Positions 49,701 to 52,239 of a DNA stretch of 64,000 nucleotides are shown here, one piece after another (within the stretch, counting starts at the first letter, position 1; each line of letters opens with the position of its first letter). The translations under genes were made by a program, and so were the position numbers. The notes beneath the pieces are model-generated. The model was not told where the DNA came from, made no database searches, and saw nothing but the letters and a program-made list of their open reading frames with translations. The stretch comes from Sphyrna mokarran (taxonomy: Eukaryota), in contig JAGIQG010000011.1 of the NCBI GenBank assembly GCA_024679065.1, forward strand, positions 6,820,001 to 6,884,000, in the 5' to 3' direction.

Positions 49701-50079
49701 CTGTTTGGCAGATTACACATAAAGCAAGGATTGCAGTGGAAAAGAGAAATGCATCCAACAGAATTTGTTTCTTTTTTTAAAGTGTACCTTAACAATTTTC
49801 TGTCTTTGGGAATAGTGGTGAGGTAGTGCAAGGAATCCCGGGCTAATTATCAGCCCATTCAACCATATCATGAACATTCTTTCCATGGCCAACAAGCCTG
49901 AATCTGGAGCTATAAATCTATTCCAATTTAAGATATCTGTGTAGATATCGTCAACTCCTACCAGTATAGGTATTCATCAAATAGTTAACAATTAACACCA
50001 AAAAATTAGGAACATTTTAAAATTTATTCACGGGATGTCAGTATCACTGGGTAGGCAGCATTGTTGTCCATCCCAAATT

Positions 50080-50297
50080 TTACTCTAGCCTTGAAGTTAC
50101 AAAACCAGTGCTCAGAGTGGACCAGCCAGAGCCACATTCTTTCCTTACTTGCCCCAAAAACCAAGTTCAAAATCCAAGTGAATCCAATTCATGGTCCCAT
50201 GAGACAAAGAGGATTCAAGGTGACAACACAAGATATTGCACCTCATCTTGGGCTTGCTCCAGTGATGCTTGATCTTAGCCAAAAGCCAAGAAGCAAT
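50080..50297 (-). mobile_element. U2 snRNA-derived short retroposon (SINEU-like)
   Basis: Minus strand starts ATTGCTTCTTGGCTTTTGGCTAAGATCAAG (U2 nt 1-31). It later has TGGTTTTTGGGGCA...GTCCACTC...GCA.CTGGTTTTG, matching the U2 Sm site and 3' half. TSD cat(c/t)ccaaatt at 50069-50079 and 50299-50309. Confidence 0.8.
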
Positions 50298-52239
50298 GCA
50301 TTCCAAATTGCCCTTGGACCAAATGGCTTGTTAGGTAATTTCAGAAGGCATTTTCAAGAGTCAACTACATTGCTGTGAATCTGGAGTCACAGTTAGGTCA
50401 GGCCAGCTAAGAGTGACAGATTTCCTTCCCTAAAGGACATGAGTGAACAAATGAGTTTTTATGACAATCAACCATGGCTTCATGGCCATTAAGTTAATTT
50501 CACTGAATTCAAATTCCACTATTTGCCCAGGATGGATTCTGAAAAAGAGGGTTTCCCTTGTGGAGAGATTACAACGAGGGACACAGTTTAAAAATAAGGG
50601 TTTTTCCATTTAGGACAAAGTTCAAGAGAATTTCTCTTTGAGGTTTGTGAGCCTATGGAATTCTCTTCCTCAGAGTGTTAGAGGCAGGGTCATTGAATAG
50701 TTCCTTCGGGTGCTCCAGTTTCCTCCCACATTCTGAAACATGCTGGTTAGGTGCGTTGACCTACTGGACTGTGGCAACTAGGAGAATTTCAGAGTAACTT
50801 CATTGCAGTGTTAATGTAAATCTTACTTGTGGCTAATAAAGAAACTTTACTTGATTTACATCTCAACCTGCTTTGTTTTGTCTTTTCCCTTGTCTGCCTC
50901 ATGCCCCTTCCAACTTTGAGAGAGCCAGAGTCATTGCAAGTGAGGAGGCCGCCAATTTGAGCAATTGAATCCATGCCAGCTCTCTTCAGGGCAATCCAGT
51001 CAGTCCCATTTCCTCACTTTATCCCTTGCAAGTGTATTTGCTTCAAATATAGTACAACGAGAGATGATCTTATTGAAAAACAAGATCTTGAGGGGACCTG
51101 ATAGGATGGATGCCAGGAAAATGGCTCCTCTTGTAGAGAAGATTAGATCCAGGGAATACAGTCTAAGCAGTTTTCTTTTTAAGACAGAGAGGTAGCTGGT
51201 TTGTGGAATTTTCCTCCTAGGAAAATAATAAAGGCTGGGTCACAGAATTTATTCAAAGCTGAGTTAGATAGATTTTTAGTGGACAGGGGAAGTTAGAAGT
51301 TATTGGGGGAGAGGGGGGTGGCGGGGTGTGTAAGGAGGTGATTGAGACCACAACTAGATCAGCTATGATCTTATCAAATGACAGAGTAAGCTTTAAAAAC
51401 CAAAAGACCCTTGCTGAATGTTTCTACATGATTATTTGATTTCCTTTTGAAATCTTCAATTCTATCTTCCACATAAGCAACAAGTTACAGACCTCTTTGC
51501 ACACCCCTCAATCATATACCCAGAGGCTTAAACCAGTGTCTCTTCGTCCTTATACCATCAGCTATTGGGAACAGCTTTTCTTTATCTTTTTATCTAAACT
51601 TGAAATAATCTTATGCTTTTATCAAATTTCTCCTCAAACTCTTTTGCTCCAAGGTGAAAAACCCAATTTCTCCAGCCAGCTTTGCAACCAAAATCCTCCA
51701 TCCCTGAAACTGTGCTGCATAGTGGCAAATGCCAGAAGAAACGAGAGCTGAATGAGAATAGAAAGAGATATATAGTGAAGGTGTGGAGTAAGCTAGAGTC
51801 AAGGAGGAGTGAGAGCTGAACAAAATAAACAACACTGTGGCAGAGCATGCCCAAGACCAGGAGTAGGAGAAGCAATTCAAACATATTGACAAAATGAAAG
51901 AAAGGGAGGTCAGAATTGGTGCAGAGATGAAGGAGCAACCGAACCCAAGGGACCTAAGATTGTGATGGAAACTAAATACTGATGTAAGGATTGCAATTCT
52001 ACATGGAATAAAAGAACAAAAGGATCATGGAGGGCAGCTCTACTAATCAGTAAAAGTTATGGCAGGTCTGCAAGGCCATAAGAGAATCAAACCAAGCACT
52101 AGGTTTCAGCCAAAACTTTCCAGCACCACCTGCCCATTGCCAGATTCTTCCAGTCTCGCCTGAAGTTAATGGATTACTGTTGGTCAGCCACATTCTTGCA
52201 GCAGGTCCCACTACTACAGTCAGAAAATCTCGACATTCA

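What the first reader, a model, noticed from the sequence alone, without database searches (positions are those of the whole stretch)
50069..50309. U2 snRNA-derived retroposon with the branch-point domain swapped out (shark SINEU-like candidate)
Seen on the minus strand: U2 nt 1-31 (two CpG transitions, one deletion) stops just before GUAGUA. About 100 nt of unrelated sequence follows (catcactggagcaagcccaagatgagg...ggaccatgaattggattcacttggattttgaac). U2 similarity then resumes at the Sm-site region (TGGTTTTTGGGGCA vs TGGATTTTTGGAGCA) and 3' domain (GTCCACTC, CTGGT.TTG). The unit splits another repeat and is flanked by an 11-bp TSD, a retrotransposition signature. Known: ordinary U2 retrocopies are simple truncations, and snRNA-headed SINEs (SINEU) were described from crocodilians. 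Inference: an independent U2-derived SINE family, or a retrocopy of an expressed U2 variant that keeps the U6-pairing 5' end and Sm-like site but cannot read branch points.
Basis: partly seen in the sequence, partly recalled or inferred. Interest (0 to 1): 0.82.

Follow-up and report, generated by a model that had tools for sequence, protein, structure and literature searches.

The report
Shark SINE built from disabled U2
This is one old copy of an abundant jumping element made from the splicing RNA U2, in which the part that reads introns is not swapped out but mutated and predicted to be locked in a hairpin; relatives sitting at a fixed site inside U2 genes suggest it likely spread by borrowing the U2 promoter and a U2-targeting retrotransposon.

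Summary
The element is real: a U2-derived retroposon at 50080-50297 (minus strand), with a 10/11-matched target-site duplication that splits another repeat. It is one decayed copy of a dispersed family (thousands of search candidates, about 9% from consensus), and the same insertion is present in a second organism.

It aligns to U2 (p about 0.001 for the consensus, 0.009 for this copy), and an older subfamily bridges U2 and this family. The middle is stacked U2 5' fragments plus U2's branchpoint-interacting stem-loop, zipped from -0.8 to about -10 kcal/mol. The changes include A30G and then U43A, the pair that abolishes splicing in human cells (Stevers 2026). The Sm site and the stem IV loop are also degraded.

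One copy of the older subfamily and five of a sister family sit at U2 nt 38|39, the Keno target; one of the five retains U2 promoter sequence. This suggests transcription from a U2 promoter and mobilisation by a Keno/Tx1 LINE, addressing an open question about crocodilian SINEU. No source locus or RNA was found for this subfamily, and Repbase/Dfam were not checkable. The scan noted an analogous spliced-leader system in another genome, not this family.

The parts
50299..50309 (-). 5' copy of the target-site duplication (11 nt)
   Evidence: 10/11 match to 50069-50079; single in uninterrupted host-repeat copies
50268..50297 (-). Head: U2 nt 1-31, with two CpG transitions and one deletion; the family consensus equals the genome's U2 gene here
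50250..50267 (-). Stacked U2 5' fragments: a decayed remnant of U2 nt 32-36 closing the head, then a second copy of U2 nt 25-31 that forms the outer 5' arm of the hairpin
   Evidence: The older subfamily A' reads U2 1-36, then 25-31, then 23 onward
50225..50249 (-). U2 nt 23-47 = branchpoint-interacting stem-loop (BSL), hyperstabilised in the family; the branch-point recognition remnant lies at 50234-50239 in the loop region
   Evidence: Predicted dG: U2 -0.8, A' -9.1, A -10.0, this decayed copy -4.3 kcal/mol
50212..50224 (-). Former stem IIa sequence, now the outer 3' arm pairing with the second U2 25-31 copy
   Evidence: Extended hairpin -20.9 kcal/mol in the A consensus; alignment
50194..50205 (-). 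Stem IIb remnant (shortened by a deletion in this copy)
50154..50193 (-). Sm-site region with an ~18-nt tandem expansion, predicted to fold back over the mutated Sm site (50154-50163); a second Sm-like octamer at 50167-50174 is half in the stem
   Evidence: dG 0 in U2, -4.9 in A', -10.0 in A; 31 of 48 copies have an Sm-like match somewhere in the region; native A in 4 of 30 copies
50110..50152 (-). Stem III remnant; pairing is kept in the family consensus
   Evidence: dG -13.4 (U2), -14.7 (A'), -14.8 (A)
50080..50109 (-). 3' end: remnant of stem-loop IV with an ~8-nt deletion, an AGTAAA hexamer and a very short A tail
   Evidence: Three-way alignment; hexamer counts
50069..50079 (-). 3' copy of the target-site duplication
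50310..50480 (-). Host repeat split by the insertion, upstream part (it may extend further)
   Evidence: 70-83% to other copies that run straight on into the downstream part
50020..50068 (-). Host repeat, downstream part to its A/T-rich end (boundary approximate)

Best explanation
The window holds a decayed copy of a non-autonomous retroposon family (SINEU-like) made of a nearly full-length, stepwise-degraded U2 snRNA sequence, whose source copies were likely transcribed from a U2 gene promoter after landing at U2 nt 38|39 and were likely copied by a Keno/Tx1-type LINE.

SHOWN: it is a dispersed family with A-rich tails and TSDs; it is colinear with U2; subfamilies run U2 -> A' -> A; copies of A' and of the sister family B lie directly upstream of U2 nt 39-43, where Tx1-like LINE 3' ends also lie; one B copy lies inside a U2 gene that retains promoter sequence.

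PREDICTED by folding: the branch-point region is locked in a strengthened BSL hairpin and the Sm site is paired.

INFERRED: insertion at the Keno site gives the element a promoter and a fresh U2 head, which explains heads that are nearly identical to U2 (1-36 in A', 1-38 in B) on a body only 62-72% identical. Source copies that could not act as U2 (locked BSL, broken Sm site and stem IV loop, mutated Keno target) were tolerated and kept spreading. The family is now inactive.
For: Family and age: 2351 and 5286 first-look candidates; 48 distinct A loci at a mean 9.1% non-CpG divergence, range 3.5-15.5%, with the window copy the most diverged; no near-identical pair (best 90-92%).

TSD scores of 8 or more in 13 of 48 loci vs 8% of 400 mismatched-flank controls.

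A' is intermediate: at 22 columns where A and A' differ, A' matches U2 at 17, A at 2, neither at 3; identity to U2 from nt 23 is 72% vs 62%. The 98 copies classed form a graded series from A' to A, and the window copy is 20/22 A-type.

BSL dG: -0.8 (U2), -9.1 (A'), -10.0 (A), -10.3 and -9.9 (two B modules). For A' and A, p=0.004-0.005 against random substitution and 0.011-0.023 against a GC-ward null. A' carries A30G and A adds U43A, the M1 and M2 mutants of PMC13019295; there M2 and M1/M2 give little or no splicing, and only M1/M2 is predicted to favour the BSL.

Keno site: the 3' flank starts at U2 nt 39 (PMC4640811 section 6; PMC6136364). An exact 'A-run + Keno target' pattern gave 3 loci and control 0: two Tx1-like 3' ends and one B. 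B lies in U2 at this site at L141, L051, L191, L203 and L238. L141 has 85% identity over 48 nt to the proximal U2 promoter. An A' copy is followed by U2 nt ~43-186 at L242 (control 0).

Tandem copies: 9 of 48 A loci abut another family member within 30 nt; A lies 5' of A' 5 times vs 0 the other way, and B lies 5' of A 3 times vs 0.

One B copy has 41 of 72 A read as G, against 0-6 of about 80 in 30 other B copies; this is consistent with A-to-I editing of a double-stranded RNA intermediate.
Against: No copy of subfamily A itself was found at the Keno site (1 hit, 1 control hit; 0 of 42 U2 pseudogene loci) or behind a U2 promoter. The link for this lineage rests on one 5'-truncated, promoterless A' copy. 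Dispersed copies show no Keno-like target after the tail (A 9 of 65 vs 8.8%, p=0.11; A' 4 of 33; B 3 of 28; crude tail calling). No 3' tail shared with a LINE was demonstrated. The promoter at L141 is interrupted and the locus is old. The promoterless B-in-U2 copies could be insertions into existing U2 pseudogenes rather than read-through retrocopies. The BSL test was chosen after seeing the hairpin, and inverted repeats can homogenise without selection. The LINE is typed only by a zf-RVT domain in its relatives, its 3' end and its target; no RT phylogeny was made.
Confidence: 0.68

Rival explanations
1. The family is a real U2-derived SINE, but its heads were added by template switching of the reverse transcriptase onto free U2 snRNA, and it was transcribed from unrelated flanking promoters (Kojima's model for crocodilian SINEU). 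Keno-site copies are incidental by-products.
For: L202 carries an unedited U2 3-57 fragment in front of a hyperedited B copy, which looks like an RNA-level switch. 3'-truncated U2 retrocopies ending at nt 62-64 exist. No A source locus was found.
Against: The B consensus head ends at nt 38 and the A' head at nt 36, at or next to the Keno cut, rather than at scattered positions. Six SINE copies sit on the Keno 3' flank, and one retains promoter sequence.
Confidence: 0.17
2. The source was a free-standing variant U2 gene with its own snRNA promoter (possibly a functional variant snRNA), and the copies are its retropseudogenes.
For: The element is colinear with U2 over almost its whole length; stems IIb and III keep their pairing; an Sm-like octamer exists upstream of the native site in many copies.
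Against: There are three stacked 5' fragments, A-rich tails with a poly(A)-signal-like hexamer instead of the U2 3' trailer, loss of the Sm A and the stem IV loop, and a graded subfamily series. No conserved or young gene copy appeared among the best hits. U43A lowers U2 accumulation in human cells.
Confidence: 0.08
3. The element is a SINE as described, but the hairpins are neutral products of quasi-palindrome template switching and A-to-I editing during repeated RNA passages, with no selection against splicing activity. (This concerns only the 'why' and can hold alongside the best explanation.)
For: U2 -> A' changes include 11 A>G vs 5 T>C, and one copy is hyperedited. The stem changes could be templated by the opposite arm.
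Against: Four modules solve the stem differently, with double-sided changes, while the loop closure is kept. The stabilisation stays significant under a GC-ward null (p 0.011-0.023). Ordinary A copies show no A>G strand bias (91 A>G over 47 sites vs 131 T>C over 75 sites).
Confidence: 0.3
4. A single U2 pseudogene with an unrelated later insertion in its middle.
For: The Rfam score of this copy alone is below the cut-off.
Against: The same layout occurs in all 39 best non-self matches, and the middle aligns to U2.
Confidence: 0.01

Closest known systems
SINEU-3 of crocodilians (Kojima 2015, PMC4494074; main text read, figures and supplements not seen)
   Same: A U2-only short retroposon with a 5' ~32-nt U2 head, further U2 sequence downstream, a poly(A) tail, tandem insertions sandwiching a TSD, internal T runs that argue against Pol III, and a Tx1-clade partner inferred.
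   Different: SINEU-3 lost the branch-point region by a ~50-nt deletion, has a ~40-nt non-U2 3' end, and 90% of its copies sit in Mariner-N4_AMi. Here the region is kept and zipped into a hairpin, the 3' end is degraded U2, copies are dispersed, and some sit at the Keno site of U2 itself. The paper found no SINEU outside crocodilians. The SINEU-3 sequence could not be compared.
SINEU-1 and SINEU-2 (same paper)
   Same: Recurrent addition of U2-derived 5' segments, giving stacked heads, as in families A' and B here.
   Different: They carry U1 segments or a non-U2 3' half; their transcription was left open, with no promoter-bearing locus shown.
Keno (Tx1 clade) and Utopia, U2-targeting non-LTR retrotransposons (PMC4640811 section 6 and passages; PMC6136364 passages)
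   Same: Same insertion site, with the 3' flank starting at U2 nt 39; LINE 3' ends at that site occur in this genome.
   Different: They are autonomous and protein-coding; this element is a ~220-nt non-coding passenger made of the target RNA itself.
U2 BSL-stabilising mutants M1 (A30G), M2 (U43A) and M1/M2 (Stevers et al. 2026, PMC13019295; abstract, introduction, passages and first part of section 21 read)
   Same: The same two substitutions, gained in that order along U2 -> A' -> A.
   Different: Those are engineered mutants in human cells; here they come with further changes (U39C, C28G/G42U, loop changes) in a dead retroposon.
Ordinary U2 retropseudogenes
   Same: Retrotransposed U2 sequence with TSDs; many occur in this genome.
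   Different: They are plain full-length or truncated copies 76-96% identical to U2, with no shared insertions or subfamily-diagnostic changes.

Membership tests
SINEU (snRNA-headed SINEs, Kojima 2015) | 5' head derived from U1 or U2 snRNA | tested here: met
   Consensus nt 1-31 equal the genome's U2 gene after restoring one CpG
SINEU (snRNA-headed SINEs, Kojima 2015) | Short (<500 nt), non-coding, 3' poly(A) tail | tested here: met
   About 220 nt; A-rich tails listed for 48 loci; the window copy's tail is only 2-4 A
SINEU (snRNA-headed SINEs, Kojima 2015) | Many dispersed copies sharing one derived structure (not a sum of independent retrocopies) | tested here: met
   graded diagnostic changes in 98 copies
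SINEU (snRNA-headed SINEs, Kojima 2015) | Target-site duplications | tested here: met
   13 of 48 vs 8% in controls; window TSD checked against empty host repeats
SINEU (snRNA-headed SINEs, Kojima 2015) | Mobilised by a Tx1-clade LINE, shown by a shared target | tested here: inconclusive
   Shared Keno site for 5 B copies and 1 A' copy; none for A; no target bias in dispersed copies; no RT tree
SINEU-3 specifically | Internal ~50-nt deletion of U2 after nt 32 | tested here: not met
   The U2 32-82 region is present, diverged, with an insertion in front
SINEU-3 specifically | Preference for Mariner-N4_AMi | not testable with these tools
   Reference sequence unavailable; flanks here are diverse
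SINEU-3 specifically | Sequence homology to the crocodilian consensus beyond U2 | not testable with these tools
Functional or variant U2 snRNA gene | Upstream snRNA promoter | tested here: not met
   The window flank is a split repeat; promoter searches returned no A copy with extended promoter similarity
Functional or variant U2 snRNA gene | Intact branch-point recognition sequence and single-stranded Sm site | tested here: not met
   Three of six BPRS bases changed in A; native Sm A in 4 of 30 copies; both regions predicted paired
Classical Pol III SINE (tRNA, 7SL or 5S head) | Internal Pol III promoter and no internal T4+ terminator | tested here: not met
   The sequence shows T4 in the head and T5 at the Sm site; a B-box-like word exists by eye but lies too close to any A-box-like word (consensus recalled, no assay)

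The most novel reading that the evidence does not exclude
An independent, non-crocodilian origin of SINEU in which a U2-derived RNA parasitises its own parent gene. A Keno-type LINE inserts it at U2 nt 38|39, where it takes over the U2 Pol II promoter and a fresh U2 head. Selection on the source copies then froze U2's branch-point stem-loop (through the same A30G and U43A changes that kill splicing in human cells) and masked the Sm site, so that a heavily transcribed U2 mimic could not poison the spliceosome. In family B, a newly acquired intact branch-point sequence is likewise paired off by an antisense segment.
Probability: 0.4. Interest if true: 0.75.

Novelty: new variant of a known kind. 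Interest (0 to 1): 0.6.

Why it matters
snRNA-headed SINEs were described only from crocodilians, and how they are transcribed without an internal promoter was left open (PMC4494074; still undemonstrated in PMC5786205, 2018). This genome holds the missing kind of locus, a SINE inside a promoter-bearing U2 gene at the Keno site, which makes the question testable. The subfamily series is also a natural mutagenesis record of U2's branchpoint-interacting stem-loop that repeats laboratory loss-of-function mutants, and it hints at a general rule that snRNA-derived parasites must disarm the branch-point region: crocodilian SINEU-3 deleted it, and this family locked it. The window copy itself is an inert fossil.

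Tried and rejected
(1) A source locus for A was not found. The U2 upstream 300 nt gave 8 of 8 candidates, none with an A body; a variant proximal promoter gave 2 of 2, namely the B-in-U2 locus and L112. A promoter-adjacent motif + head pattern gave 8 hits: 5 U2 genes, 1 B, 1 A', and 1 A/A' intermediate. The last three show only the short motif by eye; their BLAST rows fell in the cut part, and they are treated as chance.

(2) A tail + Keno flank pattern: 1 hit without an A-rich tail and 1 control hit.

(3) Keno-like target after the tails of dispersed copies: no enrichment.

(4) Antisense-U2 origin of the middle: not significant.

(6) In one search, runs X2 and X4 did not cover the junction, which proves nothing; X1 may be the source sample, so it is not independent.

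(7) Recurrent insertion into the same host repeat: three other copies lie within about 12 nt of the window's site (L115, L220, L236), but two came from a search aimed at that junction and the host repeat is very abundant, so no target preference is claimed.

(8) Pfam found nothing on the 196-aa LINE fragment itself; typing rests on its relatives.

(9) Literature searches listed no report of a shark or other non-crocodilian SINEU; one search listed nothing specific on ADAR-hyperedited SINE retrocopies. Only listings were seen for most hits. Repbase, Dfam and subscription papers were not searchable, so prior cataloguing is not excluded (my estimate about 35%).

Full report
OBSERVATION. On the minus strand, 50297-50268 is U2 nt 1-31 with two CpG transitions and one deletion, the element runs to about 50080, and 50309-50299 / 50079-50069 match at 10 of 11 bases. 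Rfam's U2 model spans 50075-50297 end to end at 23 bits, E=0.069, under the cut-off of 46. About a dozen uninterrupted copies of the flanking repeat carry the 11-mer once and run straight from the upstream into the downstream flank, so the duplication and the split are real. The host is taken to be an elasmobranch because the three relatives found for a neighbouring LINE fragment are named shark proteins.

IT IS A FAMILY. The window stretch drew 2351 first-look candidates in the own genome; 40 were scored, and the 39 best non-self matches are 76-80% identical. A more central copy drew 5286 candidates, with best non-self matches of 90-92%. Candidates are not copy numbers. Among 48 distinct loci the mean non-CpG divergence from the consensus is 9.1% (3.5-15.5%), and the window copy is the most decayed. 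TSD scores of 8 or more occur in 13 of 48 loci against 8% of 400 mismatched-flank controls. Fourteen public runs, from eight studies and six coded organisms plus one unlabelled sample, hold half or more of a central copy's sampled words. In organism C a 2844-nt contig covers the unique flank and 40 nt of the element (49808-50119, 22 differences and one gap), so this very insertion predates that split. The family is old and shows no sign of current activity.

THE MIDDLE IS U2. Against the genome's own U2 gene (L031, one of four near-identical genes in an array about 8 kb apart), the consensus middle scores 66 vs 37.6+-5.1 in 2000 shuffles (p=0.001) and the window's middle 50 vs 36.1+-4.8 (p=0.009); antisense controls give p=0.55 and 0.17. 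A diverged tandem partner led to an older subfamily A' (1031 candidates, 40 scored, 30 fetched), about 12% from its own consensus. From U2 nt 23 on, A' is 72% and A 62% identical to U2 over 152 columns; where they differ, A' matches U2 17 times, A twice, and neither three times (gap placement near the Sm site is uncertain). Ninety-eight copies classed at 22 diagnostic columns grade from A' to A, and the window copy is 20/22 A. A' shows that the apparent insertion is stacked U2 5' pieces: nt 1-36, then 25-31, then 23 to about 183 with an ~18-nt expansion before the Sm site and an ~8-nt deletion in stem-loop IV.

STRUCTURE (predicted). The hairpin in the middle is U2's branchpoint-interacting stem-loop, nt 23-47. 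Its isolated energy goes from -0.8 kcal/mol (U2) to -9.1 (A') and -10.0 (A); the decayed window copy gives -4.3, and the whole window copy folds at z=-2.2. The same number of random substitutions reaches these values with p=0.005 and 0.004, or 0.011 and 0.023 under a GC-ward null; the test is post hoc. A' has A30G, A38G and U39C; A adds U43A and the double change C28G/G42U. Stevers et al. 2026 (PMC13019295; abstract, introduction, passages, first part of section 21) engineered A30G (M1) and U43A (M2): M2 and M1/M2 gave little or no splicing and low RNA levels, and only M1/M2 was predicted to favour the BSL. Stems IIb and III keep their pairing, stem IIa is lost to an outer helix, and the Sm region goes from unpaired to -10.0. 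The native Sm A survives in 4 of 30 aligned copies; an Sm-like octamer appears upstream in many copies but is half paired.

SISTER FAMILY B AND THE KENO SITE. A neighbour of one copy revealed family B (1457 candidates, 40 scored, 30 fetched): U2 nt 1-38, a 70-nt segment predicted to pair with that head's branch-point sequence, a second U2-like head, two BSL-derived hairpins with different compensatory solutions (-9.9 and -10.3), and an AATAAA + A tail (23 of 32 copies). Keno and Utopia insert with U2 nt 39 as their 3' flank (PMC4640811 passages and section 6; PMC6136364 passages). In the U2 array, at G000:C949:17389776-17390226, a B copy lies between U2 4-37 and U2 40-191, with the U2 3' trailer behind it and promoter-like sequence in front (85% over 48 nt proximal, 81% over 57 nt distal, split by another repeat). 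Of the 42 other non-intact U2 hits examined, three more have B followed by U2 nt 39-42 onward and the trailer, without promoter (L051, L191, L203), and two have LINE 3' ends at nt 38 and 46. An exact A-run + Keno-target pattern gave three loci (control 0): two LINE 3' ends and a fifth B. A pattern for the A' tail gave one locus (control 0), L242, where a 5'-truncated A' copy, split by a later insertion, is followed by its tail and U2 nt ~43-186. Relatives of the LINE's protein carry zf-RVT, as expected of the L1/Tx1 clades (recalled); no tree was built.

OTHER SIGNS OF THE MECHANISM. Ten of 48 A loci have another family member in the fetched flanks, nine within 30 nt. In mixed pairs A lies 5' of A' five times and B 5' of A three times, never the reverse, in one case with three copies of the TSD: the re-targeting Kojima described for SINEU-3. 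One B copy (L202) has 41 of 72 A read as G outside a G run, against 0-6 of about 80 in 30 others, with 5' U and 3' G neighbours favoured. This fits ADAR editing of a duplex RNA (preferences recalled) and points to passage through RNA.

AGAINST. No subfamily-A copy was found at the Keno site or behind a promoter, though exact patterns miss most 10%-diverged copies and only the best 40 candidates are scored per search. Dispersed copies show no Keno-like flank. The promoterless B-in-U2 copies may be insertions into pseudogenes. Hairpin zipping could be neutral. Expression was not shown.

COMPARISON AND VERDICT. Kojima 2015 (PMC4494074; parts 1-4 of 5, the whole main text; supplements not available, and they bear on the SINEU-3 comparison) defined SINEU in crocodilians only, with SINEU-3 as an internally deleted U2, a Tx1-Mar partner clustering with Keno, and transcription left open. 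Passages of PMC5786205, PMC4758252, PMC7245038 and PMC5499810 add no shark SINEU, and searches listed none; Repbase and Dfam could not be checked. The element meets the general SINEU criteria and fails the SINEU-3 deletion criterion, so it is filed as a new variant: most likely an independent origin that locks rather than deletes the branch-point region, with genomic evidence for promoter capture at the Keno site. The scan's index held no look-alike sequence and one analogous spliced-leader system in another genome. Interest 0.6.

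Noticed in passing
L061-L090, e.g. L062:1501-1800 (G000:C772:40060551 onward): Second SINEU-like family B, about 300 nt, 1457 candidates: U2 1-38 head, a segment antisense to the branch-point sequence, a second head and two BSL-derived hairpins.
   Followed up: yes
L141 / G000:C949:17389400-17390260: B copy inside a U2 gene with promoter remnant and 3' trailer, in the U2 gene array; a candidate former source locus. 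Another B copy with a short promoter-adjacent motif lies at about C949:17313420-17313700 (minus).
   Followed up: yes
L202:1252-1616 (minus; G000:C771:54350033-54353150): A-to-G hypermutated B retrocopy (41 of 72 A) with an unedited U2 3-57 fragment in front and a 10-nt TSD; a likely DNA record of ADAR hyperediting. It contains a long G run that could be an assembly artefact.
   Followed up: partly
L112 (G000:C557:765060-768136, minus): U2 promoter + U2 1-38 + the first 9 nt of the B body, followed by a broken LINE endonuclease-like fragment; its promoter is split by a repeat at the same place as in L141.
   Followed up: partly
L052, L190, L193 (e.g. G000:C1548:101853900-101864000): A second U2 gene type with different upstream and trailer sequences, in tandem, interleaved with Tx1-like LINE 3' ends that abut U2 nt 38-40 or similar words.
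   Followed up: partly
L037-L047 and others: Many U2 retrocopies include about 35 nt of 3' trailer and end at one place without a poly(A) tail (a strict pattern matched 12 of 42 loci), i.e. copies of unprocessed pre-U2; four others stop at nt 62-64.
   Followed up: no
L115, L220, L236 and window 50299-50310: Four family copies lie within about 12 nt of the same position of one abundant host repeat; this could be a weak target preference.
   Followed up: partly
window 50790-50850 (minus): Start of another abundant repeat about 500 nt upstream of the element; a similar repeat splits the A' copy at L242 (seen by eye). The weak snoR442 Rfam hit at 50787-50807 (E=1.1) is chance.
   Followed up: no
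window 1-64000: No stop-free frame of 200 codons or more in the whole window; whether the element lies in an intron was not determined.
   Followed up: no
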